A stretch of DNA of 64,000 bases. It comes from a phage. Shown in pieces: positions 860-54,603 of the stretch. The position numbers and the translations under genes were made by a program. Below the pieces are notes generated by a model, which saw nothing but the letters and a program-made list of their open reading frames with translations, ran no database searches and was not told the origin of the DNA. Within the stretch, counting starts at the first letter, position 1, and each line of letters begins with the position of its first letter. The stretch lies in NCBI GenBank assembly GCA_018865545.1, contig GCA_018865545.1_3633.1; one strand, written 5' to 3'.

Positions 860-2860
860 ATGAAGATGACAAAATGGGGGGCTGGTGCATACTTTGAAGG
901 TGAGAACCCAAAAGCATTCCGACCTACAAAAAGTGGTGGTAAAGTGAATTATCAGAAAAAAGAAGAAGAAACTGTAGAGTCTGTCCTAGATAGTACAAGG
1001 ATCTTGGCTGTCCCCCAAATGGATATTAGTTTAGATGCAGCTAAGTACTTCAAGATCAGATCTGCAACAGATTTGAAAGACGGTACTACAGTGGTGGCAA
1101 CATATCTTCCATATTATGACAAATATGGGAAATTGACAGGGTACAAAAAACGAGACTGGACTGTTCCGAAAGAGAAAAAGGGGCATTTCTCTGTTGTTGG
1201 CACAGTAAAGGCTTCCTCTCAATTTTTTGGTCAACATGAGGCCTCTATGGGATCTGGTAAAAAACAGATCTTTATTGTTGAGGGGGAAGGTGATGTAACG
1301 GCTGGCTGGCAAGCTGGGTTTGAGTATATTAAATTCCTTCATAGCAATCCTAACACGTCACGTTCAGTACGTGAGTGGGCAAACAATGCTTTAAAAGGCA
1401 TCAAAGCAATTCAGGATGGGGAAGAGGTTTCTAATTGCCCGACATTACCTTTTATCGGGTTGAACTGTGGTACAGCCAATGCTGTGGATACATTCGCCCA
1501 CAACGAAAAGTTTATCAGGGAATATGAAAAGATTGTCCTTGGCTTAGACAATGATGAAGCCACAGCAAGGGAAAAAGAACACAGAATTAAGAAAGGTAAG
1601 GAAGCCACAGATGATGTCGCAGGTTTTTTACTGTCTGACAACATCTATGTTGCACGATACCCAAATGAGCGCAATGACCCAAATGGTGTTAAAGATATCC
1701 GGGATATTTACAAAAAAGGTAAATGGATGGATATCTGGAATATGTTTGCTAAAGCGCAGGATAAATATGTTCCAGACAAATTGATTGGGTTGGAGAGAAT
1801 ATCTATTGAAAATCTCCGTAAAAAGAAAAAAGATGGCGTTCCGTTGCCGTGCTTTCCTCGTTTGTATGAACTAACAAGAGGCCCACGAACAGGAGAATTG
1901 TGGACACTGACAGGCCCATCTGGAGCTGGGAAATCAACTTTCTCAAGAAAGATTGAGTATGCAATTATCGAGTACCTCCGTAACATGGATATTCCCCGAT
2001 TAGACGGTTGGAAAGAGAACGAGAAAATTGCAATTATTCGTCTAGAGGAGGATGAGGAGGAGTCTGTAAACAGCTTATATGCTGAGGAGCTAAAGATTGA
2101 CCCGAAAGCATTTGTTGCAGACCCAGAACAATTCCTTACCGATGAGCAGCACTTAGCTATACACCAACGATGGATTGCCGAAGATAAGGTTAAAATTTTC
2201 GATCACTTTGGTTCAATACCAACTGACCAATTACTACAAAAATTGAAACAGATGGTTTTCCTTGATGGGTGTAGATGGATTATCTTAGATCACTTATCGA
2301 TGGTGATATCAGGATTAAAATCCGATAACGAGCGAAGAGATTTAGATAACATCATGACGGAATTGGCTGCCTTCTGCAAAAAATATGACGTGTTTATCCT
2401 CAGTATCAGCCATATGAAGCGTAAAGAGATCCAGATTCCAAAAGACAAAGATGGTAATCTCTTACCGTTTTGGTATCCTGTGCGGAAAGAGGATCTCCGT
2501 GGGTCAGCAGCACTCGAACAGTTATCATGGGTTGTATTAGGTGTTGAACCTGAAGAACTCCCTGATCGCTCTCGTGGGCGTATTCGTAGCGTTGTAATGA
2601 AAAACCGTCCACATAAAAAATTAGGTATAGCGGATACTCTGATTATGGATGATAATGGTCAGTTTTCTGATGCGTCAGGATGGGTGTGGGAAGACAATAT
2701 GTTTAAACTCAACGGGGAGGTAATGCTAAGACCTAAATCAATGGTTCAAAGTTTAGAGCTTGAAACACCTGTGGGTAAAATTGCTGTTTCTGTTCCTCAA
2801 CAAGAACCTGCTGTTGTTATTGAGGAACCTGAAGATTTGGACAACGACACACCATTTTGA
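860..2860 (+). CDS. Bifunctional DNA primase/helicase (TOPRIM primase + DnaB-family helicase)
   Basis: 666 aa ORF; IVEGEGDVTAGWQAG (TOPRIM-like acidic motif), Walker A TGPSGAGKST, Walker B-like IILDHLS; RBS aaggagaag upstream of ATG. Confidence 0.8.
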   Translation: MKMTKWGAGAYFEGENPKAFRPTKSGGKVNYQKKEEETVESVLDSTRILAVPQMDISLDAAKYFKIRSATDLKDGTTVVATYLPYYDKYGKLTGYKKRDWTVPKEKKGHFSVVGTVKASSQFFGQHEASMGSGKKQIFIVEGEGDVTAGWQAGFEYIKFLHSNPNTSRSVREWANNALKGIKAIQDGEEVSNCPTLPFIGLNCGTANAVDTFAHNEKFIREYEKIVLGLDNDEATAREKEHRIKKGKEATDDVAGFLLSDNIYVARYPNERNDPNGVKDIRDIYKKGKWMDIWNMFAKAQDKYVPDKLIGLERISIENLRKKKKDGVPLPCFPRLYELTRGPRTGELWTLTGPSGAGKSTFSRKIEYAIIEYLRNMDIPRLDGWKENEKIAIIRLEEDEEESVNSLYAEELKIDPKAFVADPEQFLTDEQHLAIHQRWIAEDKVKIFDHFGSIPTDQLLQKLKQMVFLDGCRWIILDHLSMVISGLKSDNERRDLDNIMTELAAFCKKYDVFILSISHMKRKEIQIPKDKDGNLLPFWYPVRKEDLRGSAALEQLSWVVLGVEPEELPDRSRGRIRSVVMKNRPHKKLGIADTLIMDDNGQFSDASGWVWEDNMFKLNGEVMLRPKSMVQSLELETPVGKIAVSVPQQEPAVVIEEPEDLDNDTPF

Positions 2861-3054
2861 GAGAAAAAGAGGATACGTGTAAAATATGATGAGTTAGCTA
2901 TTCGTGTTGCCAAGGGGCTTGAGGGGTACATTCCCGCCAAGAGAAGCCCTTTGGCAAAGAAACATAAATCAAAAATAGGTAGTTTTCCACATAATCTATA
3001 ACCAACTAAGAGATGGGCGACGATACAGTCAAGCCCATCTTGAATAGGAGGAGT

Positions 3055-5094
3055 ATGAAAGGGCTTTTTGTCGGAGATAACGAAGCTGACGGATTATTAG
3101 AAGAGGCAACTAAATATCACTGCACACTTTTTAAAGAATATGCTGTAAATAACTGGGTGTTGTTTCTCGATCCTGCTCACAAGGAATACCAGAGTGCAGT
3201 TAATTTTGCACGCAGCAAAGAAGGTGTTAATTTACGTATCCTTTCTTATGATGATTTTTACTCTTGGTTGCAGACCGAGCCAAGAGGGATAGCAATACAT
3301 AACCTGTTCGGCTATGATTTACGTCTGTGGAAAAAACTTTCTGGGATTGAATATGACATGTTCAAAGACCCAAAATGTATGGGGACGATAGGTAATAAAC
3401 AGGTAAATCTTTACGACACTCTTTCAATGAGTCGTGTTCTTTACCCAGATCGCCCATTGCCTAATGGCTGCCCAGATTCTGTATTGAACCCTGTAACAGG
3501 AAAACGTGACAGGGTTGGGCCACACGGCTTATTGGCATGGGGTTATCGTGTAGCAAACAAGAAAGTGCAGATTGATGATTGGCGTAATCAGCCATTGTGG
3601 GAATATGTAAACCGTGTGTGGGAAGACGTTATCATTAACGAACTTGTGTGGAAAGCTCTTATTGATGAGTCAAATGGTACGCGATGGCCTGATGACAAGC
3701 AGTTTATGTACACTGATAAACCTCACGGGATGCACCAGATTAATTGGAAAAATGCATTACGTAGGAGAATGCTCACAGACTATTTGATGATAGAGCAAGA
3801 AATACAAGGCGTATACTTTAATCGGGAGGAGGCAGAAAAATTAAGAGATCGCATAGATAAGATGATGCGAGAAATTGAAGAAGAGGTAGAACCACTTCTT
3901 CCAAAAAAAGAGATGACGAAATCTCAACAACCAAAATTCCCAGCTAACCCTTTTGACACAGCGGGTAATATATCTCATCATGGGTGGAATTGGTTGGAAT
4001 ATAAACTTGGCTATCCTGTTAACAGGGAAGCTCTGGAGTTTAAAGCTCCACCAAAAACAGCTTTTAAGAGTAATGGGGATGTAAGTGCAGCAGGGGAGAG
4101 ATATTGCATCCAGAATGGCATTGAAGATCCGGCTTTATACGGTGATTTCATTCGTTCCCAGCGAACCAAAGAGAACACACTCGAACCTTTACCGCCAGAT
4201 CTTCTAGAGAAGGCTAAAGAAGACCTTCGAAACAGAAAAATGCCAGATTTAATGGTTCCAATGAAAATCTCTAATCAAGATGATATTAAAAAATATTTGA
4301 TCAAAGATGCTGGTTGGAAACCTACACTGTGGCGTGTAAAAGATGTTACTAAGGATCAATTTAAAAAGACTCGTGAAGATTCTGAAATTGATGTACTAGT
4401 TAAGAAGTACATAGAAGAGTTGGCAGAGTCTGAGTATAAATCTCTTATTCTTGACTACCTTAATGATTCAGATGAGAAATTCAACATTTCAGAGCGTAAG
4501 TTTGACCATCGCCATGCATCTGAAAGGGGTTATTCAGAGATATTTAAGAAATTTCGGCGTAAAGCACGCCAGTTACCGACATCTCCTCAATTAAAAGATA
4601 ATTTTGGGCATCTGTGTCCAAATTTGGAGAAAATTGATGTGCATATGGCAAAACAGATTGTTAAGTGGCTATCACTTCGTAACAGGCGATCTGTTTTAGA
4701 CCCAATGGATGAGGATAAGACGGATACAGGGTTATTAAATCACCCTCGTTTAGACATTGACGGAAAACTTCCAGCACGTTTTTCTGGAATCACTAACACG
4801 GGCAGGTGCAAGCATACTGTTTGCGCAAACATGCCCAAGCCTGATCCGAAGGTTTTGTTGGGAAAAGAAATGCGGGGTCTTTGGACAGTCCCTGAAGGCT
4901 ACTACCTGATGGGTTGTGATGGATCTAACTTAGAAGGTATGATTGCAGCGGCAGGGGCTTTTGAGTTTGATGGTGGTGAGTATTTACGTATCATGATGGA
5001 AGAGGATGCCCATGAACGAAACGCAAGAGCATACACAATAGCAGCAGGAAAGGAGGTAACACGCTCTGGAGGAAAGGGGGTTACGTATGGTTAA
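3055..5094 (+). CDS. DNA polymerase, family A (T7 gp5-like), exon 1 (exonuclease + N-terminal polymerase part)
   Basis: Start chosen at ATG 3055 after aggagg RBS; N-terminus LFVGDNEADGLLEEATKYHC and HGLLAWGYRV resemble T7 gp5; ends with RSGGKGVTYG (R-x3-K-x3-YG, first half of motif B) directly before in-frame TAA. Confidence 0.8.
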   Translation: MKGLFVGDNEADGLLEEATKYHCTLFKEYAVNNWVLFLDPAHKEYQSAVNFARSKEGVNLRILSYDDFYSWLQTEPRGIAIHNLFGYDLRLWKKLSGIEYDMFKDPKCMGTIGNKQVNLYDTLSMSRVLYPDRPLPNGCPDSVLNPVTGKRDRVGPHGLLAWGYRVANKKVQIDDWRNQPLWEYVNRVWEDVIINELVWKALIDESNGTRWPDDKQFMYTDKPHGMHQINWKNALRRRMLTDYLMIEQEIQGVYFNREEAEKLRDRIDKMMREIEEEVEPLLPKKEMTKSQQPKFPANPFDTAGNISHHGWNWLEYKLGYPVNREALEFKAPPKTAFKSNGDVSAAGERYCIQNGIEDPALYGDFIRSQRTKENTLEPLPPDLLEKAKEDLRNRKMPDLMVPMKISNQDDIKKYLIKDAGWKPTLWRVKDVTKDQFKKTREDSEIDVLVKKYIEELAESEYKSLILDYLNDSDEKFNISERKFDHRHASERGYSEIFKKFRRKARQLPTSPQLKDNFGHLCPNLEKIDVHMAKQIVKWLSLRNRRSVLDPMDEDKTDTGLLNHPRLDIDGKLPARFSGITNTGRCKHTVCANMPKPDPKVLLGKEMRGLWTVPEGYYLMGCDGSNLEGMIAAAGAFEFDGGEYLRIMMEEDAHERNARAYTIAAGKEVTRSGGKGVTYG

Positions 5095-5825
5095 TGATAG
5101 CCCCCTTACAAAGTAATTTGTAAGGTGCACCCATTGAATTGCTGGGAAGTCTGACCGAGTTATGTCGAAGATAATCAGCAGGTAAGCGAATGCTTCCCTC
5201 TTACAAAAGGAGGGAGAATATGAGTACATTTTGTTGTATAATCTGCGGTGAACAATGTGTTAAAACTGGTAAAAATCAAAAAGTATGTCTCTCTGAAGGT
5301 TGTAGAAGAGAATATTCAAAGATAAAAACCAGAGAATATAGACGCAGAAAGGCCGAAAGAGAAAATAGGCTTGACAGAGTTGGCATAGGAAAAGGTGGTG
5401 GGCAGCCTCGTGGGAAATTGTCCAAATTTTATAAAAATGGCATATCGATGTTTCGTAAGTTATCCCCTGTCATAAAGGAACAGAGAAGATACTGTAATAG
5501 ATGTAATAAAGATCTTCTTTATGCAGGTAAGGATGAGTGGTGCGTTCATCATATTGACCATGATAGGACGAATAACGAAATAAGTAATTTTGAATTACTT
5601 TGTAAAAAATGCCATCAAATAGAACATAAATGTTGGGAAGCATTCGAAACTTCAACGACTAGCCGAAAGGCGTAGGGCCAAGCGGTGAGGGAAACCTCCA
5701 GTCTTTCAGACTGCCGAAGCAGTGGGCATCCTGAAAAGGATGAAGATATAGTCTGATCTGCATAGAAATATGTAGCAGTTCCTAAGAGGACGGGCATGGT
5801 GTAGCGAGCCATGTTGAACAATATG
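5095..5825 (+). mobile_element. Group I intron interrupting DNA polymerase motif B, carrying an HNH endonuclease ORF
   Basis: Exon 1 ends in U (ggT), intron ends in G (5825); P-like gaattgctgggaag (5136-5149), Q-like aatcagcagg (5173-5182), R-like tcagactgcc (5706-5715), S-like aagatatagtctg (5743-5755); ORF lies between Q and R as in canonical ORF-containing group I introns; splicing would give ...GKGVTYG-IMYGAQAPKI..., matching pol A motif B. Confidence 0.6.
5190..5675 (+). CDS. HNH homing endonuclease (intron-encoded)
   Basis: 161 aa; CVHHIDHDRTNNEISNFELLCKKCHQIEH (HNH motif with Cys pairs); located inside intron between Q and R elements. Confidence 0.8.
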   Translation: MLPSYKRRENMSTFCCIICGEQCVKTGKNQKVCLSEGCRREYSKIKTREYRRRKAERENRLDRVGIGKGGGQPRGKLSKFYKNGISMFRKLSPVIKEQRRYCNRCNKDLLYAGKDEWCVHHIDHDRTNNEISNFELLCKKCHQIEHKCWEAFETSTTSRKA

Positions 5826-6458
5826 ATCATGTATGGAGCACAAGCTCCTAAGATAGCCGCAATGCTGGGTATCCCCCTTAATAGAGCACAGGCTGTAATA
5901 GACGCATTCTGGGATAGTAACTTCGGGTTGAAAATGCGTAGAGAGTGGTTAGAAAAATTCTGGGAGGCAAATGGGAGACGCTATATTCCAGGCATGGACG
6001 GGCGTAAAATTTGGACTCGTTCTAAACATTCTCTGCTGAATGCTTACCAACAAAACGGTGGTGCTTCATTGTTTGACCTCATGGGAGTCCTGTTCCATTG
6101 GGAATTGGTGAAACGGGGATGGTACGACCAAGGTGTCAGGAGGGTTATCTACTACCACGATGAGATACAGGTACAAGTACCGGAAAGATTTAAATCAATA
6201 ACGGAGCATTCTAACTTAGAGGCTGCACAAAGCTATGTAGACATGATGCTTGAAAAAGGCCATCGTTTCGACGGGCATTATGTGAAAGCAGGTAAAGTTA
6301 TTGTTGAACCTGATGTGTATGGGAAATACAGGATACTGCATTGCCCAGTAGGAGAGCTTGCAACAAAATGTGTAGAAAAAGCATCTAAGATAATGGGACT
6401 TCCCGTTTTAATTACAGGAGAATATCTTTGTGGATACACATGGGCAGATTCCCACTGA
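5826..6458 (+). CDS. DNA polymerase, family A, exon 2 (C-terminal polymerase part)
   Basis: In-frame continuation IMYGAQAPKIAAMLGI (second half of motif B), VIYYHDEIQVQV (motif C HDE); upstream in-frame stop at 5802 shows it is not an independent long ORF. Confidence 0.75.
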   Translation: MMYGAQAPKIAAMLGIPLNRAQAVIDAFWDSNFGLKMRREWLEKFWEANGRRYIPGMDGRKIWTRSKHSLLNAYQQNGGASLFDLMGVLFHWELVKRGWYDQGVRRVIYYHDEIQVQVPERFKSITEHSNLEAAQSYVDMMLEKGHRFDGHYVKAGKVIVEPDVYGKYRILHCPVGELATKCVEKASKIMGLPVLITGEYLCGYTWADSH

Positions 6459-7068
6459 TGAAGTAGAGGAAATTTGGAAGGATATCGTAGGGTATCCTGA
6501 TTATCAAGTAAGTAATTATGGAAATGTAAGATCTTTTAAATCAGGAATGTGGAAATACTTAAAAACTAAAAGTGAAAATTTATCTCCACAATGCTATCCG
6601 AGCGTGTGCTTGTACAAAAGGGGTAAAGATTCAGGGAAAAGTTTTTCAGTCCATAGACTTGTAGCGGAGGCTTTTAAAGAGCCTCCTTCTCCAGAATTGC
6701 AGAAAGAATGTAGAAAAACTGTGCTAGGAGTTCCAATTATAAACCACATAGATGGTGACAGACATAATAATAGGGTTGAAAATCTTGAGTGGTGTACCTA
6801 TAGCCATAACAATACAGTGGCTTATGGTATGGGGAGAATCCAAAAATTTGGTGATGATTATCATTTATCTGTTCTTACAAAGGAGAAAGTTTTAGAGATT
6901 GTACGGCTTATTGATTGTGGGATAACACACAAAGCTATTGCGGAACTATTCGGAGTTTCCAGAAATACAATATCTTCTTTAAATAATGGATACTCATGGT
7001 CACATGTCACAGGAAGACCTAAGAAAGTCCAGAAAAGAAGATCAAAAACAGACCCTATATCAGAGTAA
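6430..7068 (+). CDS. Free-standing HNH homing endonuclease (HNH_3/NUMOD-type)
   Basis: 212 aa; WKDIVGYPDYQVSNYGNVRS N-terminus, HRLVAEAF...INHIDGDRHNNRVENLEW core, C-terminal HTH-like ITHKAIAELFGVSRNTISS; overlaps 3' end of DNA polymerase. Confidence 0.75.
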   Translation: MDTHGQIPTDEVEEIWKDIVGYPDYQVSNYGNVRSFKSGMWKYLKTKSENLSPQCYPSVCLYKRGKDSGKSFSVHRLVAEAFKEPPSPELQKECRKTVLGVPIINHIDGDRHNNRVENLEWCTYSHNNTVAYGMGRIQKFGDDYHLSVLTKEKVLEIVRLIDCGITHKAIAELFGVSRNTISSLNNGYSWSHVTGRPKKVQKRRSKTDPISE

Positions 7069-7078
7069 GGTAAAAATA

Positions 7079-7450
7079 ATGAAAGTAAAAGGAACCAAGA
7101 CAACAACACAACTTATTGATGTTGAAGTAAACGACTCTGAAATCAAAAGAATCATAGATAGCCAAGACAAAATAATCTTGGCAGAAGCAATTCAACAAAA
7201 ACTTTTAAACAAATTCTTCAAAAGATGCCTACCTTCAATAGACGGAGAGATTATCGTAAGAAAGGACGCTAAGGCTGGCAATAGAGGAACACGGGTCTTC
7301 GTCCATGTTGATGCCGATTGGGATTACCATAATAATGTTGGTGTGGATAAAGAAATCAGGCCATTGACACACGGAGAGATTGTGCTGTATGAGAACATCC
7401 GAAAGCTACCTGAGTATATAATGTCGTTGGATGCTGAATTGGCTAATTAA
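7079..7450 (+). CDS. Hypothetical protein
   Basis: ORF; start moved to internal ATG 7079 (MKVKGTK...) just after HNH stop. Confidence 0.45.
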   Translation: MKVKGTKTTTQLIDVEVNDSEIKRIIDSQDKIILAEAIQQKLLNKFFKRCLPSIDGEIIVRKDAKAGNRGTRVFVHVDADWDYHNNVGVDKEIRPLTHGEIVLYENIRKLPEYIMSLDAELAN

Positions 7451-29650: not shown

Positions 29651-30771
29651 TTATTGAGGGACAGCAAGAATAAGATTAATGTTATCCATATTAGCTGTCT
29701 CTATTTGCTGATCAATCATATTCCGTAATTCTCCAGCATCTATTTTAATTGTTATTTCACCACTGACAGGCTCGGTAGGAATAACCATAGGAGCTACAAT
29801 TTGACCCGCAGTAGATCCGCCCGGCATCAAATTATGGGATTGAAGATAGTTGGCTTTATCCTGCATATGCCCAGCCCAAAGCGATGTCCACCAACTACTT
29901 AACATCCCTCCGGTAACAGCCATTAAGTCACCACCACCAAATGAATAAGCATTTCCAAGATCTTGTTTTTTAGCGTTCTTTTCACTATCGTTGGAATTTA
30001 CGTAGTCGTATCCCATAAGGGCAGCAGCAACGTAGGGATTTCGTATAGACCACCCTAGCAGCTTACCAAAAACCCCACTTCGTTTCCCACCACCTTTCCT
30101 ATCCCACGGTCCATTACCACCGCTATTACCTCCCCCAGATTTTGGTACGTCCGGCCCACCAAAAATTTCTTTAAGAATTTTTAATGTTCCCGTTATTCCA
30201 GCAATTTTAGCCAAGATTCTGAATACTCTAACCAAGGAAGCTGCGAAGAATAGAGCACCGAGACCCCAACCTACCCAGTTAGTCGCTTTTTGGAATGTCT
30301 CACTTTTCTTTATCCATTGTGGGATATACATGTTTAATTCTGCATTTATAAAAATGCAGACATTAGATATCGTATGTGCGATATCCATAAAGCCCTTTAT
30401 GAATCCAGAAGTAAATTGTCCAACTTTCTCAGCTAACGGTCCTTTAGCATCCAACATGTGGGACAAATCATTAAACGTCTTAGTTAATTCATCCCCAAAT
30501 CCACTTTCAAATATCTTATTTTGAAAGTTCATCCATGTTTGTTGTAAACGCTGCATAGCAACACGGTTGCTTTGTTGTGCCTTGGTAAGTGCACCACCTT
30601 TTCTTGCGGCCTCGGCATAATACTTAGCGACCAAAGGAAGAATTTTTGAAGCCTTTAGCTCCCCATTCTTCATCATATCCATTAATTTTGCAATGTCTAT
30701 AGATGAATCATTGAATGCTTCTTGTGTGGCTTTAAGGAATACATCAAGGGAACCAGGGATGCCCTCGGCTA
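29651..30771 (-). CDS. Tail tape measure protein, exon 2
   Basis: Frame stays open upstream of the ORF-track Met to 30771: AEGIPGSLDVFLKATQEAF...MDMMKNGELKASKILPLV; hydrophobic and Gly-rich segments typical of tape measure C-terminal regions. Confidence 0.55.
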
Positions 30772-31601
30772 CTTATTGTCCCCTCAGTTCGCTACACTGA
30801 GGCGGTGTGCTAAAACACCCGCCACATGTTTCCATGTGGAACAGACTATATCTTCCTCTGATTTTACAGAGGCCAACCATTTCGGAGCGGCTTCGCCCCT
30901 ACTCTCCTACACTCATCGGAGATAGTCGTTGAGCACATAACTTAAAGATTTTTTAATAAACGTCGCCAAGCATTTTTATGTTTTATCCTGTGGATAGTTG
31001 ATCTTGTTACACCAAACTCATTCATTAAAGATGTTGTATCCTCAAAACGCCTGTGGTAAATCCTAATAACTTGATCTTCTGTTAATTTGCAATTAGGATT
31101 TCTTTTTCCATCTACGGAGTTTAGACCTTTTGAGAAAGCATGTTTTTGGTTCTGCGACCTAGTAACATACTCCAGATTATCTTTGTGGTTGTTGGCCTTA
31201 TTACCATCTTTATGGTTAACTTCCATTTTTGGATGTGGCGGTTCACCAATGAATGTTAATGCGACTATCCTGTGTACAAGATACAATACACACTTTCCGT
31301 CTACCCTAAAGTAAACTCTTTTATATCCATTGTGTATTGTTTGCTCAGTTAGTTTCTTCCATGTACCTCTTTTTGTTGAAAAGATTGCACCATCTTCTCG
31401 ACAAAAGTACCCGTTATGTCCAGGCACGGGTCTAATCTCTAAGTTACTTCGCTGCGGATTGTCCATTGTTACATCTCCAAACTTTTTACTATACCTGAGA
31501 TAGTTATTCTCAGCCATTATTATGTTACCATAATAATTTAGTATTTGGTAGCTTTAGGAGTTCCCCGCAATTAGATTGGTTTTACAACAGCTAGTATGTC
31601 A
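30772..31601 (-). mobile_element. Group I intron in tape measure gene, carrying an HNH endonuclease ORF
   Basis: On minus strand: exon 1 ends ...CAGU (31602), intron ends in G (30772); P AAUUGCGGGGA (revcomp of 31562-31575), Q AAUCCGCAGCGAAG (revcomp of 31447-31460), R GCUCAACGACUAUCUCC (30915-30930), S AAGAUAUAGUCUG (30838-30852); splice gives ...IMAEELKQQL-AEGIPGSLDVF... Confidence 0.6.
30942..31517 (-). CDS. HNH homing endonuclease (HNH_3/NUMOD-type), intron-encoded
   Basis: 191 aa; LVHRIVALTFIGEPPHPKMEVNHKDGNKANNHKDNLEYV core and C-terminal HTH-like GVTRSTIHRI; annotated N-terminus overlaps intron Q element so the true start may be internal. Confidence 0.75.
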   Translation of the reverse strand: MAENNYLRYSKKFGDVTMDNPQRSNLEIRPVPGHNGYFCREDGAIFSTKRGTWKKLTEQTIHNGYKRVYFRVDGKCVLYLVHRIVALTFIGEPPHPKMEVNHKDGNKANNHKDNLEYVTRSQNQKHAFSKGLNSVDGKRNPNCKLTEDQVIRIYHRRFEDTTSLMNEFGVTRSTIHRIKHKNAWRRLLKNL

Positions 31602-32901
31602 ACTGTTGTTTTAATTCTTCAGCCATGATCTGACCTTTACCCATCATTTGTTGGATAGCGGTAATACCACGCTGGAATTTTACAGGATCAACCTGAAGTG
31701 CAGTAGCATATTCTGAGAAACCTTTGAACAGTTCGTCATTTTGCGCCTTGCTCAAAACACCTTTGGCAGATATGGACATTTGGGTATAACCTTGGGCGGC
31801 GGTTTTTAAATCCAAACCCAATCTGTAAGATTGCTCCCGAACAAACTGTATTCTTTTCGCTGCTTCTTCTGAGTCATCAGAAACCATTAACATGGTAGCT
31901 TCCATGCCTTGAAAGAATTGTCCTGTTTTCACAACACTTGCGGCAGCATTAAAAGCTCCGTATGCAGCAGAAACACTAATTAATGTGCTACGAAGGTTTT
32001 TCAATCCTTGATCAAGAGATAGTGTATTTGCCTTAGCTTTGCGGAGTCCTGTTTCCATTGCTGCCAATTCAGCACGGAAATTAGAAGCTCTCATAGTCTG
32101 GCTTTGCATAAATCTCTTTTCCAGATCATCATAACCTTTAATTTTAGACCTGAAATCATCACCATACTTAGCACGAAGTCTTACAGCAGCATTAGCAATT
32201 GTTGATTGTTTTGCAGCCTTTATCCTTTCTGCTCTTAACGCTTCTCTTTCTTTCTTCTTATTAGCATCTTTTTCTGCCTTAATCTCATCCGCTGTTTTTT
32301 CTTTCGGAATAGATTTATGATAGCGTTCCATAGCAGAGTTCTGGGCAGCCACAAGACTTGGATCGTGACGACTATTAGGATCCCCAACAATACCAGAGGC
32401 AGACCCTGAAGACTTTCTTGCTGCAAGTTCTTGCTGCAATCTTGCTTGACGGGCAGCAGATATTTCTGGATTTGTTCCATATCCAGAACCTGTTTTTTCC
32501 ATCTGCTTCAACTTTGATTTTAATGCATTATATTCTTTTTGTTCTTCAGGTGTTCTTCTGTTTGTTAGTCTGGCTACTGCTTGCTTTCTTCTCGCGCTCT
32601 CAACTTTGGCTATTTGTTCACGAGCACGAGCTTCCTTTTTTGCCATTGCAATAGCATGTGCCGTAGATTTTGCTTGCTCTGCACGTTCAGTTTGGTGTAA
32701 TCTTTTAGCTACAAGACGAGCCTCTTGCGCAGAACGTTTATAAATTGCTGCCGGATTACTTTTATTAGAAGTGAAAGCTCTGTTAGTCTTTTCCCATTCC
32801 TTCTTCAGGGATTTTATAGCTTTCATTGCACGACCGTAACTGGTGCGATCTACAGACCACTCGACAGCATTTACGGTTTTAGTTACTATGATATTCGCCA
32901 T
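31602..32901 (-). CDS. Tail tape measure protein, exon 1
   Basis: Long coiled-coil, Ala/Lys/Glu-rich N-terminal part then ...GITAIQQMMGKGQIMAEELKQQL, typical of tape measure proteins; in-frame stop follows the proposed 5' splice site. Confidence 0.6.
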
Positions 32902-47477: not shown

Positions 47478-48263
47478 TTATATTCTTTTATACAAGGTAG
47501 GAGCTACAATTTTTGGAATAACAACAGGTTTGACTATTTCTTCTTTTTCAAGATAATTTATCCCAGAAGAAATGGCGTCGACCCAATCGTCTTTTCTTGT
47601 CGTAGTACTCCTTTCCCCATTGAACTTTTCAAGCTCTGTCATAAGGGCTTCATAAGTTTTAGGATCAAAACTATCACGAACTATTCTCACCATACCTGCT
47701 TGAGCAAGTTTTGCAAACGGTGTGAATCGTGTTAATTTTGATTTATTGCTTGGTGTAGGATCTTTTTCTACTGTAAACCCTTCCGCTATTAATTCACGGG
47801 AGCTTGTTAAAAATTCACTTATTCCTGCTTGTCCTGGGTCAACACTGAAAATTATAGTGACATCATCACCATCAAAATAAGCCTGTTTCTTAATGATAAC
47901 ATCACGTTCCCCAGCTTTTTTACAGAATCTTCCCTGCGTTTGAGTCGAATATCTACCATCATCAAAAAATTCAGGACAATAATCACCAGACAAGTAGTAA
48001 AAGCCATCATTGTCTTTACTTACCTTAACAGATGCTGTAAAGTCAGGATATCTGTTTCCAGATGTTCTTTCTGTACCTGCTTTATCATACGGGCGAACAG
48101 ATACAACACCGAGAGGTAAGCAGGGAACCTCTTTTAAATAAGATCTCTGGAAATAGTTTGCCCCTTCAGGTCTTGCGTTCCAGTTCCCATGCAACAACTG
48201 GGCTTTTTCTACCTCTGGAAGACCTTCAAGGAATGCTAGATAATCTGGGTTATTCTCCAGCAT
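47478..48263 (-). CDS. terL: Terminase large subunit, last exon (nuclease domain); true 5' edge a few codons upstream
   Basis: VTIIFSVDPGQAG and RKDDWVDAISSGINYL resemble RNase H-like nuclease motifs of large terminases; in-frame stop about 27 nt upstream of first Met marks the limit of the open frame. Confidence 0.65.
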   Translation of the reverse strand: MLENNPDYLAFLEGLPEVEKAQLLHGNWNARPEGANYFQRSYLKEVPCLPLGVVSVRPYDKAGTERTSGNRYPDFTASVKVSKDNDGFYYLSGDYCPEFFDDGRYSTQTQGRFCKKAGERDVIIKKQAYFDGDDVTIIFSVDPGQAGISEFLTSSRELIAEGFTVEKDPTPSNKSKLTRFTPFAKLAQAGMVRIVRDSFDPKTYEALMTELEKFNGERSTTTRKDDWVDAISSGINYLEKEEIVKPVVIPKIVAPTLYKRI

Positions 48264-49250
48264 GGGAGGATTATCGAATCCTTGTATTCAAGGTTGGACG
48301 CAACGCCAACCCCCGCACCACTACGTGCTGCTGCATGTCACCATGCAGAGTAGACTATATCACCACCCACACATAATGGGTGCTTCGCTTTTCGAACGCC
48401 ATTAGCTTGCGATCTACTCCCTTGCGGGATAGTCGTTGAACTACATTACCATTCATAGTTGTTTGAGATATAGATGTAAGTTTTTCTATCTTTTATTCTT
48501 CTAACAAGATTAAAACTAACACCCCATTTTTTAGATATCTTATTAATGCTTAGGATACCGTCTCTCAGATCTTCACATATCCCTATAACTTTGGATTCAC
48601 TAATTCTGTTGGAAGAAGGAACCATCCTGAAATTAAACTCTTTAGAAATGTCTGGGTAGACTCTCCCAGCTTTGATACTACTAACCACAGTCTGCCCAAT
48701 ACCAAACATCTCACTGATATCCTTTACTCTAGCACCCTGCTCAAGTAATCTGCATATCTCAAGGGCAGTGTTATCATCAAGAGGCCTGTAACTGTTTACA
48801 TAAGACTTCTTAAGCCCTATTTCATGTGCGTGATGTGTGTTTTCCTTTGCAGTTGTCCACTCAAGATTCCACGCTGCGTTATTAAGTTTGTTTCCATCTA
48901 AATGGTTCACTTGAGTTTTTGTATCAGGGCTATCATTCTCGACAAAAGCAAAAGCAATAACCCTATGGACAAGAACTTGAAACTTTTTACCATCCTCACA
49001 CAACGTTAACATTGCATAGCCAGTTTTCTTATGGACATTAGGATGTAAAAATTTGTGGGAATACAAACTATAAATTCTTCCATCATACGTCGCACAATAA
49101 TGGGAATACCCTAAAAATCCTAAATTTTTCATCTCAAACATTCTCCCTACTACAGTTTCGGAAAAGTAATTATAGCTGCTGATTGCCCTTATACAAAGGG
49201 TTTCCCAGCAATTAACGAAGTTATTCGACATGCATTACTGCATGAAGCCA
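48264..49250 (-). mobile_element. Group I intron-like insertion in terminase gene with HNH ORF (5' boundary unresolved)
   Basis: R GUUCAACGACUAUCCC (revcomp of 48426-48441) and S GAUAUAGUCUACUC (48335-48350) on minus strand; HNH ORF upstream of R; 3' segment repeated at 49606-49650. Confidence 0.5.
48446..49231 (-). CDS. HNH homing endonuclease (HNH_3/NUMOD-type), intron-encoded
   Basis: 261 aa; NLGFLGYSHYCATYDGRIYS N-terminus, LVHRVIAFAFVENDSPDTKTQVNHLDGNKLNNAAWNLEW core, HTH-like GIGQTVVSSIK. Confidence 0.75.
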   Translation of the reverse strand: MSNNFVNCWETLCIRAISSYNYFSETVVGRMFEMKNLGFLGYSHYCATYDGRIYSLYSHKFLHPNVHKKTGYAMLTLCEDGKKFQVLVHRVIAFAFVENDSPDTKTQVNHLDGNKLNNAAWNLEWTTAKENTHHAHEIGLKKSYVNSYRPLDDNTALEICRLLEQGARVKDISEMFGIGQTVVSSIKAGRVYPDISKEFNFRMVPSSNRISESKVIGICEDLRDGILSINKISKKWGVSFNLVRRIKDRKTYIYISNNYEW

Positions 49251-49572
49251 CTATTCTTTTAATGGTTGCGGAAATGAAGGAAAATGAAAGTGGTTTAGGC
49301 TTTCTTTTCTCATCCTTGCCATCCCAATACTTTTCAATTAATTCTTGCTCTGATTCACCCCAGATAAACTCCCCGTCACGTCTTATAAACCATCTAATCA
49401 CCCCGTCACGTTCAGGTATAGGATACCCCTCATCGTCTAAATACCAAGAAATCAACTCCTTAATCTTATGATCTGGATCAGGGTTACAAGAGATAACCAT
49501 CCTACTCGGGTATTTAGAGTTTGAACGTAGACGAGATATCAGATAATCTATCTGTGACCATGTGAATTGTGT
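49189..49572 (-). CDS. terL: Terminase large subunit, middle exon (ATPase domain C-terminal part); 3' limit is the ORF stop, real 5' splice site lies somewhere upstream of it
   Basis: Reading frame opens at 49572 after intron terminal G (49573): TQFTWSQIDYLISRLRSNSKYPSRMVISCNPDP, the post-Walker B R-x-R and (S/T)xNP region of large terminases. Confidence 0.5.
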   Translation of the reverse strand, partial: TQFTWSQIDYLISRLRSNSKYPSRMVISCNPDPDHKIKELISWYLDDEGYPIPERDGVIRWFIRRDGEFIWGESEQELIEKYWDGKDEKRKPKPLSFSFISATIKRIVASCSNACRITSLIAGKPFV

Positions 49573-49922
49573 CGTTTTTGTTCAGATAAGATCGCTACTC
49601 TTATCCCGCACCACTACGTGCTGCTGCATGTCACCATGCAGATCAGACTATATCTTGTGTGTTATTACACACCCCCCCTGTTTCGGCGGTTGATAATCAA
49701 CCGGAGGTTTCCCTCACCGCTTGGCCCTAACGCCCGTAAGCGATAGTCGTTGAACGTTCATCCCGTAGGGATGCTTCGCTGCGGATTGTCTAAACATTCA
49801 CACTGTTACTATACTCAACGTCATTACCGTTGACCATAAATATGTTACCATACCTACTTAGTGGTGATATGTATAAAGAGTTACCCGTCAATTAAAGGGG
49901 TTTATAGAGAGCACACTGTTCT
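49573..49922 (-). mobile_element. ORF-less group I intron in terminase gene
   Basis: Minus-strand P AAUUGACGGGUAAC (revcomp of 49880-49893), Q AAUCCGCAGCGAAG (49774-49787), R GUUCAACGACUAUCG (49741-49756), S AAGAUAUAGUCUGAUCUG (49636-49650); preceding exon ends in U, intron ends in G. Confidence 0.5.
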
Positions 49923-49955
49923 ACCCTCATCGAAACCTATAAAGGTATATTGCAA
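49923..49955 (-). CDS. terL: Terminase large subunit mini-exon (Walker B region), inferred
   Basis: Minus-strand frame LQYTFIGFDEG, hydrophobic run plus DE = Walker B-like, in frame with exon starting 49572 to give ...FIGFDEG-TQFTWSQIDYL...; bounded by intron-like sequence on both sides. Confidence 0.4.
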
Positions 49956-50194
49956 CTTATTGTCCCCTCAGTTCGCTACACTGAGGCGGTGTGCTAAAAC
50001 ACCCGCCACATGTTTCCATGTGGAACAGACTATATCTTCCATCCTTGGCGTGCCGTTTGGATCACCAATCGCTTGTGATTCTACTCTCCTACACTCATCG
50101 GAGATAGTCGTTACACCCAGAGTTTATATTTCCATATTCTGTGGCACGGTATTTTCCCATAGGGAGTTCCACCGTTATAGGCACGAAGGGCAAG
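49956..50194 (-). mobile_element. Group I intron-like element (3' core only recognisable) between terminase exon 1 and mini-exon; 5' boundary unresolved
   Basis: R (50095-50110) and S (50025-50040) elements; 85 bp at 49956-50040 nearly identical to the 3' end of the tape-measure intron (30772-30856); no P/Q recognised. Confidence 0.4.
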
Positions 50195-51277
50195 CTATTC
50201 ACCCTGATGATCTAATTTGTTATTCTCATACTCCATGTGTCTCCACAACACCTTTGCCCCAGATGGGAAAATTGCTTCCAGAGCTTTCTCCCTGAACTTC
50301 GGCTTCCATTCCTTATCGAGTTGCAAATAAATACTTTTCGCTGTATCAAAAAGTCCACCTGCACCTGTCAATTGAGGTGTTGTCCTACGAAACATTATAC
50401 ATGCTGTCTGCGGGTCATCGACATAAGCAAGCGGCATCAATTGTAGGAGATATGATTTTCCACTATTCCCAGTGACAACCACACAATCTTCCAGTCTGGT
50501 AACAAAGAAACCTGTTTGTGTTACAAAGCAGTATTTAAACCCATCCGTAGGTATAAACTCTTTAAGCTCAACTTTCTCTTTATCGTTTAATGCTCTTAAT
50601 GACCCGCCATTAACGTTTACATTAACAATGTACTCTGAGCCAATCTTCTTCAAAGAAGATTCACAATCGAAGCAGGAAACAACAAACTGGATAAAATCAG
50701 CAGTGGATTTGTTACTGGAAGAATACATACCACCTTGTGCTATAATGGCATCCATGATTACATCAAGTTGATGCCTTGAGCAGTTATAATAGTCCTCTGT
50801 TATCTCACCACACAACACTCGCTCTCTGATTGTTTCATCATCCAAATCCAAACCTGCACCAGAATAATTGAATGTTGTGATAAATTTTCCTTCCCAACCA
50901 CCGCTAGAATTTTTATGTGTCTCCGCAATTTCCGAAAATAATTGCGTTTTTGGTGGGGTATGGTAATCTTCTTTAAACAGGACAGTGTGTTCGTCAGATA
51001 GCTCTTGACAAATGCCATTACCTTCTATTCTTGTAAGTTTTTCGCAAGGGAGTTTAACAAACTCTAAAGGAGGGATAAATTTAGCCTCCCCAGTGGCTTT
51101 ATCATATTGCAGAATGTCCTGCCCTGACCATTCTGATATCTTAATCCAGCCAGATGGTGTCAACACCTCGTGGTCTTTAGACAAACACCCGGCGGCCCCG
51201 CCAATTATTAGAATTTGGGCTTTACTCTCCAAAATCATTTTTTGTTTAGGACTGGCAGGTCCAAATACTTTACTCAA
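50195..51277 (-). CDS. terL: Terminase large subunit, exon 1 (ATPase N-terminus) containing an intein in the Walker A motif
   Basis: 360 aa ORF; N-extein ...ILIIGGAAG, C-extein SGKSYLLQ... join to GGAAGSGKS Walker A; 3' end of ORF probably runs into intron. Confidence 0.7.
   Translation of the reverse strand: MSKVFGPASPKQKMILESKAQILIIGGAAGCLSKDHEVLTPSGWIKISEWSGQDILQYDKATGEAKFIPPLEFVKLPCEKLTRIEGNGICQELSDEHTVLFKEDYHTPPKTQLFSEIAETHKNSSGGWEGKFITTFNYSGAGLDLDDETIRERVLCGEITEDYYNCSRHQLDVIMDAIIAQGGMYSSSNKSTADFIQFVVSCFDCESSLKKIGSEYIVNVNVNGGSLRALNDKEKVELKEFIPTDGFKYCFVTQTGFFVTRLEDCVVVTGNSGKSYLLQLMPLAYVDDPQTACIMFRRTTPQLTGAGGLFDTAKSIYLQLDKEWKPKFREKALEAIFPSGAKVLWRHMEYENNKLDHQGE
50465..51187 (-). other. Intein (about 241 aa) inserted in terminase Walker A P-loop
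   Basis: Starts with Cys (CLSKDHEVLTPSGWIKI, block A-like), ends ...VVVTGN followed by Ser; host Walker A is complete only after excision. Confidence 0.6.
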
Positions 51278-53479: not shown

Positions 53480-53609
53480 AGGAGAGGAGATTGATTGGAT
53501 TATTATTATTATAGTTATTAGAGAAAAGTGGCGAAGGAACCTTTACATGTCGAGAGTGTCTTACCGTTTACTCAGCCACGACCTTCCTTAGTGTCCACTT
53601 TAATTCTAG

Positions 53610-53682
53610 TTGCGAGTATTGGAATCGAACCAATCTGGACTGGCTTATGAGACCAGCGAAGTCACCAGACTTCAAACTCGCA
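53610..53682 (-). tRNA. tRNA-Met (anticodon CAU; could also be Ile-lysidine type)
   Basis: Manual fold: acceptor TGCGAGT/ACTCGCA, D stem GAAG/CTTC, anticodon stem CTGGT/GCCAG, loop CTCATAA, T arm ATTGG-TTCGATT-CCAAT. Confidence 0.75.
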
Positions 53683-53686
53683 ATGT

Positions 53687-53917: not shown

Positions 53918-53935
53918 GATCTATTTCCTGTTTGG

Positions 53936-54008: not shown

Positions 54009-54016
54009 ATGATTGG

Positions 54017-54090: not shown

Positions 54091-54104
54091 ATTTATATCA
54101 ACAG

Positions 54105-54591: not shown

Positions 54592-54603
54592 AGAATATTT
54601 TGG

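What the first reader, a model, noticed from the sequence alone, without database searches (positions are those of the whole stretch)
3055..6458. DNA polymerase interrupted within motif B by a group I intron carrying an HNH endonuclease
Exon 1 stops at TAA immediately after RSGGKGVTYG. 731 nt downstream the frame resumes with IMYGAQAPKI, so that splicing after U5094 and G5825 rebuilds a family A motif B (R-x3-K-x3-YG-x2-YGA). P, Q, R and S elements are recognisable and the HNH ORF lies between Q and R.
Basis: partly seen in the sequence, partly recalled or inferred. Interest (0 to 1): 0.55.

Follow-up and report, generated by a model that had tools for sequence, protein, structure and literature searches.

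The report
Self-splicing intron in phage DNA polymerase
The DNA polymerase gene of this rV5-like (Vequintavirinae) phage is interrupted, in its most conserved motif, by a 734-base self-splicing group I intron that carries its own HNH homing-endonuclease gene. The feature is real but ordinary, because the same intron sits at the same site in related phages and has been shown to splice in one of them.

Summary
The window comes from an Avunavirus-like phage, 97.7% identical to Escherichia phage Av-05 over this region.

- **Gene layout:** the family A DNA polymerase gene is exon 1 (3055-5091), a 734-nt group I intron (5092-5825) and exon 2 (5826-6458).
- **Junction:** joining U5091 to A5826 gives an 889-aa protein with an intact motif B (R-SGG-K-GVT-YG|IM-YGA). 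This protein is colinear and ungapped across the junction with T7 gp5 and with uninterrupted polymerases of related phages. Klebsiella phage KNP2 reads ...GVTYGIMYGAQ... contiguously.
- **Ribozyme:** the intron matches Rfam RF00028 (E 1.9e-10). It folds into a complete subgroup IA2-type core (P1-P10, P7.1/P7.2 joined by GUA), with 12 compensatory base pairs across six same-site copies.
- **Endonuclease:** a 151-aa zinc-ribbon HNH ORF (5220-5675) sits in the P6a loop. Its 3' end runs through R/P7 into P7.1.
- **Correction:** the 5' splice site is U5091, not "U5094" (5094 is the last A of the UAA stop).
- **Novelty:** low. The same intron and endonuclease occur in 22 GenBank phage records. The CB7 orthologue was shown to splice by RT-PCR and cDNA sequencing (PMC7344957).

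The parts
3055..5091 (+). polA exon 1 (679 codons): 3'-5' exonuclease domain, thumb/palm, and the first half of motif B, ending ...RSGGKGVTYG
   Evidence: ORF and AGGAGG ribosome-binding site. The Av-05 annotation starts at the equivalent ATG. The spliced product aligns with T7 gp5 and with phage MiataMamis polymerase.
5092..5825 (+). Group I intron, IA2-type, 734 nt. It begins with UAA, the in-frame stop for unspliced RNA, and ends with omega-G5825.
   Evidence: Rfam RF00028 at 46.8 bits, E 1.9e-10. The insertion point is defined against intron-less KNP2. The ORF-deleted core folds with z = -5.9.
5089..5102 (+). P1: GGU|U (5089-5092) paired with AGCC (5099-5102), with the U5091-G5100 wobble at the 5' splice site. 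The internal guide also provides P10: AUGAU 5094-5098 pairs with exon 2 AUCAU 5826-5830.
   Evidence: Coordinates. Both helices are invariant and 100% paired in six sequences. All nine intron-containing alleles have GGU, while the intron-less alleles have GGC or GGG.
5104..5125 (+). P2 hairpin (9 bp)
   Evidence: Four of nine pairs show compensatory changes.
5130..5186 (+). P3 5' strand (5130-5136), P element/P4 (5139-5144), P5 (5150-5171), Q element/P4' (5176-5181), P6 5' strand (5184-5186, tentative)
   Evidence: P3 pairs with 5720-5726 and has one compensatory pair. P4 and P5 are invariant.
5187..5198 (+). P6a 5' strand (CGAAUGCUUCCC). It pairs with 5635-5646 and closes the loop that holds the HNH ORF.
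   Evidence: A 12-bp long-range helix with two compensatory pairs. The changes on the 3' strand are synonymous in the ORF.
5196..5214 (+). Hairpin CCCUC-N9-GAGGG that contains the GGAGGG Shine-Dalgarno sequence of the HNH ORF
   Evidence: Read from the sequence. A hairpin at this place is kept, with different sequence, in the phiTE and NDO71 copies. A regulatory role is inferred, not shown.
5220..5675 (+). Intron ORF of 151 aa: an N-terminal Cys cluster (zinc-ribbon-like) plus a C-terminal HNH (CxxC...HH-N-N...CxxCH) endonuclease
   Evidence: PHROG 25862 at E 8.2e-93 over the full length. Pfam HNH and HNH_3 fall just below their cut-offs. The HNH region resembles YajD-like HNH. The ORF is intact and 68-99% identical in seven orthologues.
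5635..5661 (+). P6a 3' strand (5635-5646), P6 3' strand (5650-5652, tentative), R element and P7 5' strand GACUA (5657-5661). All lie inside the 3' end of the HNH ORF.
5662..5715 (+). P7.1 (5662-5671), the GUA linker, and P7.2 (5675-5715). P7.2 carries a 27-nt insertion with two hairpins that is specific to the Avunavirus lineage.
   Evidence: Alignment. P7.1 has one compensatory pair. P7.1 and P7.2 joined by G-U-A is the IA2 signature as quoted in PMC3428280.
5720..5825 (+). P3 3' strand (5720-5726), P8 (5727-5742), S element/P7 3' strand UAGUC (5749-5753), P9 (5758-5775), P9.1 (5778-5791), P9.2 (5793-5815), omega-G 5825
   Evidence: Rfam alignment. Compensatory pairs occur in P8, P9 and P9.2. 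The segment 5745-5794 is 84-92% identical to T4-like nrdB introns.
5826..6458 (+). polA exon 2 (210 codons plus stop): the second half of motif B (IMYGAQ...) and motif C (YYHDEIQV)

Best explanation
A mobile, self-splicing group I intron (IA2-type, 5092-5825) interrupts the phage's family A DNA polymerase gene between the Gly and Ile codons of motif B (RxxxKxxxYG|IMYGA), equivalent to E. coli Pol I G763/L764.

The gene is transcribed as one pre-mRNA. The ribozyme core folds, with P3-P8 around the guanosine-binding P7. An external guanosine attacks after U5091, which is held in P1 by the U5091-G5100 wobble. The freed 3'-OH of U5091 then attacks after omega-G5825, with exon 2 aligned by the 5-bp P10. 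The result is an mRNA reading ...UAUGGU|AUCAUG... that encodes one 889-aa polymerase. Unspliced RNA terminates at the UAA that forms the first three intron bases.

The 151-aa HNH endonuclease is encoded in the P6a loop, and its 3' end doubles as P6a', P7 and P7.1. It most likely nicks or cuts intron-less polA alleles of co-infecting relatives, so that recombinational repair copies the intron in (homing).

Shown here: the sequence anatomy, the exact insertion point, the conserved and covarying ribozyme structure, and an intact HNH ORF. Shown in the literature for the orthologue in phage CB7: splicing in vivo. Inferred: self-splicing of this copy, endonuclease activity and target, and homing.
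For: - **Reading frames and spliced product:**
- **Polymerase identity:** Pfam DNA_pol_A scores 39.8 bits (cut-off 34.3) over residues 578-801, spanning the junction at 679/680.
- **Alignments across the junction:** T7 gp5 aligns ungapped across it. The product is 56% identical and colinear (8-889 against 7-925) with the uninterrupted polymerase of phage MiataMamis.
- **Intron-less relative:** KNP2 has one 905-aa ORF reading GKGVTYGIMYGAQA, with ggc|atc at the site.
- **Rfam:** RF00028 at E 1.9e-10 in a local scan and 9.3e-09 over the whole window.
- **Structure:** a canonical P1-P10 plus P7.1/P7.2 structure has 87 pairs, 99.6% of cells paired, and 12 pairs with changes on both sides. Shuffles give 6.9+/-1.5, with 0 of 500 reaching the observed count. 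Slid controls give 33-43% paired. RNAalifold independently recovers P1-P6a, P8 and P9-P9.2. The ORF-deleted core folds with z = -5.9.
- **Splice-site bases:** U at -1 and G at the intron end in all nine intron-containing alleles.
- **Endonuclease:** the HNH ORF matches PHROG 25862 over its full length and is intact in seven orthologues.
- **Distribution:** the same intron and ORF sit at the same site in 22 phage records from three genera.
- **Splicing in an orthologue:** RT-PCR and cDNA sequencing show that the orthologous CB7 intron, between CB7_53 and CB7_51 and holding CB7_52, is spliced (PMC7344957; orthology).
Against: - No transcript or biochemical data exist for this phage itself.
- The Rfam score (46.8) is just under the family's gathering score (50), because the 456-nt ORF splits the core and the model's 5' half was forced into ORF sequence.
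- P1 has only three exon base pairs plus one intron pair, which is short.
- P1, P4, P5, P6, P7 and P10 never vary in the six sequences, so covariation says nothing about them. The six sequences represent only about three or four lineages.
- The 3-bp P6 and the fine structure of P7.2 are tentative. P6 is not recoverable in the SSE121 variant.
- The HNH ORF is below Pfam's curated cut-offs, and no solved relative was found by sequence.
Confidence: 0.93

Rival explanations
1. This is a genes-in-pieces polymerase. The insertion is not spliced. Exon 1 and exon 2 are translated separately and the fragments assemble into an active enzyme, as reported for Aeromonas phage Aeh1 NrdA split by mobE.
For: GenBank records of the relatives annotate separate 'DNA polymerase' CDSs. 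An in-frame ATG at 5811 precedes exon 2 in the window. The CB7 paper reports one HNH insertion in another gene that did not splice.
Against: A complete, covarying group I core is maintained. The ATG at 5811 lies inside P9.2, has no Shine-Dalgarno sequence and is absent in phiTE and CB7. The break falls in the middle of the motif B O-helix. The orthologous CB7 intron is spliced.
Confidence: 0.03
2. The ribozyme splices, but the HNH ORF is no longer an active homing endonuclease. It would be inactive, or kept for another role such as aiding splicing or competition between phages, so the intron is now inherited only vertically.
For: The ORF falls just under Pfam's HNH cut-offs. The intron is fixed in all six Avunavirus-like records found, where homing would have no targets. 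No cleavage data exist.
Against: The ORF is intact in seven copies at 68-99% identity. All Cys ligands and the HH...N...N...H catalytic residues are invariant. The intron is patchily distributed within Mydovirus: KNP2 lacks it while the K54_rec phages carry it with near-identical flanking exons. That pattern is what recent homing would give.
Confidence: 0.12
3. This is a decayed intron. The polymerase gene is a pseudogene in this genome, or the interruption is an assembly artefact.
For: None specific. The window is an unannotated sequence.
Against: The same architecture is present in independently sequenced, viable phages. Both exons and the ribozyme are intact. The polymerase is the only replicative polymerase found in this region.
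Confidence: 0.01

Closest known systems
DNA polymerase intron 1 of Pectobacterium phages CB7 and phiTE (HNH CB7_52 / phiTE_009), Vequintavirinae; Buttimer et al. 2020, PMC7344957
   Same: Orthologous element. The insertion point is the same (GKGVTYG|IMYGAQ). The ribozyme is the same, alignable over its whole length. The HNH family is the same, at 68% amino-acid identity. Splicing of the CB7 copy was shown by RT-PCR and cDNA sequencing.
   Different: The window's copy has a 27-nt two-hairpin insertion in P7.2, a shorter P7.1 and one base fewer in the P1 loop. The paper did not map the site or draw the ribozyme.
Escherichia phage Av-05 (NC_025830) and the 18-1-2/TH18 group, split polA
   Same: 97.7% identical over the region. 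The intron and HNH are identical in kind (98.9% over the 5' part). They are annotated as DNA polymerase / HNH endonuclease / DNA polymerase CDSs.
   Different: These phages carry a second intron in motif C (H|D): 843 nt with an HNH in Av-05 and 317 nt without an ORF in 18-1-2. The window lacks it.
IA2 introns in polA of T7-like phages PhiI and W31 (I-TslI), Bonocora & Shub 2004, as described in PMC3428280
   Same: Phage of an enterobacterial host, family A polymerase, subgroup IA2 with P7.1/P7.2, and an HNH-superfamily ORF in P6a that overlaps the 3' core.
   Different: Those introns are at Pol I site 881 (motif C), not motif B. The endonuclease family differs.
Intron in polA of Yersinia phage Berlin (AM183667, joined CDS)
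   Same: It also lies in motif B. The 3' domain of the ribozyme (P7'-P9.2) is 84% identical to the window's.
   Different: It is inserted 10 nt upstream, within the Phe codon of KTF|IYG. The 5' domain differs and has no P2-like hairpin. The ORF is EndoVII-type (phrog_2633) and shows no significant similarity to the window's HNH.
SPO1/SP82/Bastille/Pf-WMP3 polA introns (I-HmuI, I-HmuII, I-BasI, I-PfoP3I)
   Same: Self-splicing group I introns with nicking HNH endonucleases in conserved parts of phage family A polymerase genes. The intron begins with UAA in Pf-WMP3 as it does here.
   Different: The site differs (Pol I position 674), and the HNH is I-HmuI-type with NUMOD domains. The hosts are Gram-positive bacteria or cyanobacteria.
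T4 td / nrdB / sunY introns (IA2)
   Same: The architecture is the same, with the ORF looped out of a peripheral helix and P7.1/P7.2 present. The segment 5745-5794 is 84-92% identical to T4-like nrdB introns.
   Different: The host genes differ, and the endonucleases are GIY-YIG or other types.

Membership tests
Group I intron (Rfam RF00028) | Conserved catalytic core P3-P8 with the P7 guanosine-binding helix | tested here: met
   cmscan gives 46.8 bits, E 1.9e-10. This is 3 bits under the gathering score because the ORF splits the core. All helices were placed by hand and are 99.6% paired in six homologues. P7 itself is invariant.
Group I intron (Rfam RF00028) | U at the last exon position, wobble-paired to G of the internal guide in P1 | tested here: met
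   U5091-G5100. All nine intron-bearing alleles have GGU, and the two intron-less alleles checked have GGC and GGG. P1 is short, with 3 exon pairs plus 1 intron pair.
Group I intron (Rfam RF00028) | Terminal G (omega-G), and P10 pairing of the 3' exon with the guide | tested here: met
   G5825 ends every copy. P10 AUGAU/AUCAU is 5 bp and 100% paired.
Group I intron (Rfam RF00028) | Compensatory base changes that support the helices | tested here: met
   12 pairs with changes on both sides, in P2, P3, P6a, P7.1, P8, P9 and P9.2. No shuffle of 500 reaches this count. The caveat is that only about 3-4 independent lineages are represented.
Group I intron (Rfam RF00028) | Guanosine-dependent self-splicing, or splicing in vivo | not testable with these tools
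   The orthologous CB7 intron was spliced in vivo (RT-PCR and Sanger sequencing; PMC7344957). There are no data for this phage.
Subgroup IA2 | Extra helices P7.1 and P7.2 between P7 and P3', joined by G-U-A | tested here: met
   P7.1 is 5662-5671, GUA is 5672-5674 and P7.2 starts at 5675. The criterion is as stated in PMC3428280. No subgroup-specific model was available to score.
Family A DNA polymerase (Pfam PF00476) | Profile match above the curated cut-off | tested here: met
   The spliced product scores 39.8 bits against a cut-off of 34.3, over residues 578-801.
Family A DNA polymerase (Pfam PF00476) | Motif B RxxxKxxx(F/Y)GxxYG continuous after splicing; motif C HDE present | tested here: met
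   RSGGKGVTYGIMYGA aligns ungapped to T7 RDNAKTFIYGFLYGA. YYHDEIQV aligns to T7 WVHDEIQV.
HNH (beta-beta-alpha-Me) endonuclease | HNH profile match | tested here: inconclusive
   Pfam HNH scores 20.5 (cut-off 21.4) and HNH_3 scores 21.8 (cut-off 24.8). However, PHROG 25862 'HNH endonuclease' matches at E 8e-93 over the full length, and YajD-family HNH matches at E 1e-9.
HNH (beta-beta-alpha-Me) endonuclease | Catalytic His/Asn/His and paired CxxC zinc ligands conserved | tested here: met
   C92xxC95 ... H110 H111 ... N118 N119 ... N123 ... C128xxC131 H132 ... H136 are invariant in seven orthologues.
Homing endonuclease (functional class) | Site-specific cleavage of the intron-less allele, and intron homing | not testable with these tools
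   Only indirect evidence: presence and absence within Mydovirus with near-identical flanking exons.

The most novel reading that the evidence does not exclude
Motif B of phage family A polymerases may be a homing hotspot where ribozyme and endonuclease modules are exchanged independently.

- One IA2 ribozyme at G763|L764 carries a zinc-ribbon HNH in its P6a loop in Avunavirus, Mydovirus and Certrevirus.
- In the Seunavirus phages SSE121 and GEC_vB_MG the same ribozyme carries an unrelated NUMOD4/HNH_3-type gene, which starts in the P5 loop behind its own promoter-like sequence.
- A ribozyme with a near-identical 3' domain sits 10 nt upstream in T7-like Yersinia phage Berlin and carries an EndoVII-type gene.

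If these are independent invasions of one ribozyme lineage by endonuclease genes, and a shift of that ribozyme between neighbouring sites, the set would be a natural series for testing the Bonocora-Shub model of how mobile introns form. It could also test whether such endonucleases act as weapons between co-infecting phages, as shown for PhiPA3 (PMC11620839).
Probability: 0.35. Interest if true: 0.35.

Novelty: already known. Interest (0 to 1): 0.15.

Why it matters
For annotation, the three adjacent CDSs (polymerase / HNH / polymerase) should be one joined polA gene plus an intron ORF. The same correction applies to Av-05, NDO71, phiTE, SSE121 and about 20 other GenBank records.

Biologically it adds nothing new in kind. 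HNH-bearing IA2 introns in conserved motifs of phage polymerase genes have been known since SPO1 and PhiI/W31, and this very intron was shown to splice in CB7.

Two modest points have value:
- This analysis maps the site precisely (Pol I G763|L764, inside the O-helix). Published lists give sites 674, 676 and 881.
- The window's phage carries intron 1 but lacks the motif C intron of its closest relatives. That gives a natural donor and recipient pair for homing experiments.

Tried and rejected
- **IMG/VR scan:** a scan with the conserved P3-J3/4-P4 pattern ATTGAATTGCTGGRAA gave 120 loci, but only one (L064, Mydovirus-like) had the intron at this site. The rest are other IA2-type introns in other genes, so they were not used for covariation.
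- **Rfam alignment of the 5' half:** Rfam placed the model's 5' half (P1-P6) inside the HNH ORF (5572-5650). I rejected that in favour of the true 5' domain at 5089-5198, which is conserved and covaries.
- **RNAalifold's extra helix:** it paired CUUC 5650-5653 with GAAG 5716-5719 in place of P7. It cannot draw the P3/P7 pseudoknot, and the pair is invariant and non-canonical, so I set it aside. The 3-bp P6 I drew instead is also unproven.
- **P1 alternatives:** I looked for a longer P1 using the exon G-run (5075-5079) or ACCCAU. Neither is conserved in the homologues, so both were rejected.
- **PDB search with the HNH ORF:** this gave only a marginal IscB HNH hit at E 0.03.
- **Comparison with the Berlin intron ORF:** BLASTP found no significant similarity, E 0.18.
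- **Promoter and terminator scan of 2800-7200:** counts were no higher than in shuffles.
- **Literature access:** Bonocora & Shub 2004 and the CB7 supplementary figures are not held in the library.
- **Large protein database searches and structure prediction:** not run, because the answer did not depend on them.
- **Intein reading:** rejected, because of the in-frame stop at the first intron codon and the RNA core.


Full report
**What is in the sequence**

The window region 860-7068 encodes, on the + strand:
- a DnaB-type primase/helicase (860-2860);
- a long ORF that begins at ATG 3055 behind an AGGAGG and stops at TAA 5092-5094, right after ...RSGGKGVTYG;
- a 151-aa ORF (5220-5675);
- an ORF segment that reads IMYGAQAPKI... 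from 5826 to TGA 6458;
- a free-standing HNH gene (6430-7068).

Joining 3055-5091 to 5826-6458 gives an 889-aa protein.

**Is the joined protein a real polymerase?**

- Pfam DNA_pol_A matches residues 578-801 at 39.8 bits (cut-off 34.3), across the junction at 679/680.
- phmmer against PDB sequences finds T7 gp5 (E 4e-17) and Taq/Klenow. The T7 alignment runs ungapped through the junction: TRSGGKGVTYGIMYGAQAPKIAAMLG against TRDNAKTFIYGFLYGAGDEKIGQIVG. It continues to motif C, YYHDEIQV against WVHDEIQV.
- The product is colinear from end to end with the uninterrupted 925-aa polymerase of Escherichia phage MiataMamis (56% identity, no gap at the junction).

**Where exactly is the insertion?**

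The window is a Vequintavirinae genome, 97.7% identical here to Escherichia phage Av-05 of genus Avunavirus. A tblastn with a junction-spanning peptide found relatives with a contiguous gene. Klebsiella phage KNP2 (Mydovirus) has a single 905-aa ORF that reads ...GKGVTYGIMYGAQA..., with DNA ...tacggc|atcatg....

Every interrupted allele reads ...taYggt | TAAT...G | atcatgta.... These alleles are the window, Av-05, 18-1-2, NDO71, K54_rec1, SSE121, phiTE, CB7 and one IMG/VR contig.

So the intervening sequence is 5092-5825, 734 nt. It follows a U and ends in a G, as group I chemistry requires.

Position 5094 is the last A of the stop codon, and the stop codon is the first three bases of the intron. 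The insertion corresponds to E. coli Pol I G763|L764, in the O-helix of the fingers. That mapping is my own, from the T7 and Klenow motif B alignment.

**Is it a group I intron?**

Rfam RF00028 matches 5572-5775 at 46.8 bits, with E 1.9e-10 in a 1.3-kb scan and 9e-9 over the whole window. That is 3 bits short of the gathering score, because the ORF splits the core. The 3' half (R, P7.1/7.2, P3', P8, S/P7', P9) is aligned convincingly. The model's 5' half was forced into ORF sequence.

The true 5' domain lies at 5089-5198. I placed all helices by hand and with RNAalifold on six same-site introns with the ORF loop removed:

| Helix | Window coordinates | Note |
|---|---|---|
| P1 | 5089-5092 / 5099-5102 | U5091-G5100 wobble |
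| P10 | 5094-5098 / 5826-5830 | 5 bp |
| P2 | 5104-5125 | hairpin |
| P3 | 5130-5136 / 5720-5726 | |
| P4 | 5139-5144 / 5176-5181 | |
| P5 | 5150-5171 | |
| P6 | 5184-5186 / 5650-5652 | tentative |
| P6a | 5187-5198 / 5635-5646 | 12 bp, closes the ORF loop |
| P7 | 5657-5661 / 5749-5753 | |
| P7.1 | 5662-5671 | followed by the GUA linker |
| P7.2 | 5675-5715 | |
| P8 | 5727-5742 | |
| P9 | 5758-5775 | |
| P9.1 | 5778-5791 | |
| P9.2 | 5793-5815 | |
| omega-G | 5825 | |

Counted on the alignment, 99.6% of 522 cells are standard pairs. Twelve of the 87 pairs change on both sides (shuffles give 6.9+/-1.5, and 0 of 500 reach 12). Sliding the 3' partners drops pairing to 33-43%. The ORF-deleted core folds 5.9 sd below shuffles.

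P7.1 and P7.2 joined by G-U-A is the stated hallmark of subgroup IA2 (PMC3428280). The P7'-P9 segment is 84-92% identical to T4-like nrdB introns.

Weak points:
- P1 has only three exon pairs.
- P1, P4, P5, P6, P7 and P10 are invariant, so covariation neither supports nor contradicts them.
- The six sequences represent only three or four lineages.

**The intron ORF**

ATG 5220 follows a GGAGGG that sits in the 3' arm of a hairpin (5196-5214). A hairpin is kept at that place, with different sequence, in phiTE and NDO71. Sequestration of the ribosome-binding site, as described for other phage intron ORFs, is an inference.

The 151-aa product matches PHROG 25862 (HNH endonuclease) over its full length at E 8e-93. 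It scores just below Pfam's HNH and HNH_3 cut-offs, and its HNH region resembles YajD-type HNH. Seven orthologues are intact at 68-99% identity. The N-terminal Cys cluster, both CxxC pairs and the His/Asn catalytic residues are invariant.

The ORF begins 38 nt after Q. It does not end before R: its last 14 codons are also P6a', J6/7, P7 and P7.1, and the UAG stop lies in the GUA linker. Two P6a covariations are synonymous changes in the ORF (GCA UUC against GCC UUU, both Ala-Phe) matched by changes on the non-coding 5' strand.

**Distribution and literature**

The intron with this ORF is present in 22 phage records: six Avunavirus-like, thirteen Klebsiella Mydovirus and three Pectobacterium Certrevirus. 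They are annotated as separate polymerase / HNH / polymerase CDSs.

Buttimer et al. 2020 (PMC7344957) showed by RT-PCR at 15-45 min after infection, and by Sanger sequencing of the cDNA products, that both HNH-containing introns of the CB7 polymerase gene are spliced. The first of these lies between CB7_53 and CB7_51 and holds CB7_52. It is the orthologue of the window's intron, with the same site, an alignable ribozyme and 68% identical HNH. That paper did not map the site or describe the ribozyme.

Published lists of polA intron sites give 674 (SPO1, SP82, Bastille, Pf-WMP3), 676 (phiL7) and 881 (PhiI, W31) (PMC3428280). The motif B site is therefore documented only through annotation and the CB7 experiment.

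**Mechanism**

The best-supported account is ordinary group I self-splicing of the polA pre-mRNA, followed by translation of a single 889-aa polymerase. The HNH protein would act as a homing endonuclease on intron-less alleles during mixed infection.

The main rival is a non-spliced, two-piece polymerase like Aeh1 NrdA. It is disfavoured for these reasons:
- a full covarying ribozyme is maintained;
- exon 2 has no conserved start codon or ribosome-binding site (the ATG at 5811 lies inside P9.2 and is absent in phiTE and CB7);
- the break falls inside the O-helix;
- the orthologue splices.

Whether the HNH is still active cannot be decided here. The presence/absence polymorphism within Mydovirus, with flanking exons identical except for the -1 base (KNP2 against K54_rec1), suggests recent mobility.

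**Verdict**

The element is an orthologue of an intron already present in public genomes and already shown to splice in a relative, so novelty is "already known" and interest is low.

A slightly more interesting pattern emerged around it. The same ribozyme at the same site carries an unrelated HNH gene in Seunavirus SSE121 (phrog_959). A ribozyme with an 84%-identical 3' domain sits 10 nt upstream in T7-like Yersinia phage Berlin with an EndoVII-type ORF. This suggests that ribozymes and endonuclease genes are exchanged as separate modules at a motif B hotspot.

Noticed in passing
window 6150-6165 (site between C6158 and G6159): The window carries the intron-less allele of a second polA intron site, in motif C (YYH|DE, Pol I 881, the site reported for PhiI/W31). 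Its closest relatives are occupied there: Av-05 has an 843-nt intron with an HNH gene and 18-1-2 has a 317-nt ORF-less group I intron. SSE121, phiTE, CB7 and K54_rec1 also have an exon 3.
   Followed up: partly
window 6430-7068 (+): A free-standing HNH endonuclease gene (NUMOD4 + HNH_3 + HTH domains; PHROG 59). Its start overlaps the last 29 nt of polA. It is also present in Av-05. An HNH in the corresponding position in CB7 (CB7_48) is listed as free-standing in the CB7 paper.
   Followed up: partly
window 47478-51277 (- strand): The large terminase gene appears to be in at least three pieces. They are separated by group I intron matches at 49624-49950 (66.3 bits, above the Rfam gathering score), 50006-50256 and 48331-48522. 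One intron holds an HNH_3+HTH ORF (48446-49231). The last piece (47478-48263) has the Terminase_6C nuclease domain. This resembles the split terminase reported for rV5 (PMC3606486).
   Followed up: partly
window 50195-51277 (- strand): The N-terminal terminase ORF reads ...IIGGAAG|CLSKDHEVL...VVVTGN|SGKSYLL.... This looks like an intein inserted in the Walker A motif (GGAAG-SGKS). It was recognised by eye only, and Pfam gave no hit for this ORF.
   Followed up: no
window 29651-32901 (- strand): The tape measure protein gene (TMP_3 domain in 31591-32901) seems to be interrupted by an HNH_3 ORF (30942-31517) next to a weak group I match (30822-31037, 32.3 bits, E 2e-4). It would continue in 29651-30682. 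An intron in a tail tape measure gene would be less usual than one in a replication gene.
   Followed up: partly
window 53600-59520 (- strand): A cluster of about 15 tRNA genes (Rfam tRNA matches of 33-74 bits).
   Followed up: no
L004 (Salmonella phage SSE121) 2928-3610: The ribozyme is at the same polA site, with the 5' 60 nt 91% identical and the 3' domain conserved. The ORF is a different HNH gene (phrog_959). It starts just upstream of the Q element, behind a TTGACA-N17-TATGAT promoter-like sequence and an AGGAGG inside an enlarged P5 loop. This points to replacement of the endonuclease gene within one ribozyme.
   Followed up: partly
L010 (Yersinia phage Berlin) 1905-2584: This T7-like phage has a group I intron in polA motif B, 10 nt upstream of the window's site (inside the Phe codon of KTF|IYG). 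It has a 6-bp P1, an EndoVII-type ORF and a 3' domain 84% identical to the window's intron. N4-like phage PhAPEC5 (L011) carries a similar 3' domain at yet another polA site.
   Followed up: partly
window 5089-5091 and homologues: All nine intron-bearing alleles use GGU for the Gly codon before the intron. The two intron-less alleles examined use GGC (KNP2) and GGG (MiataMamis). This fits the need for U at -1, or co-conversion, but the sample is small. No such pattern holds at the motif C site.
   Followed up: partly
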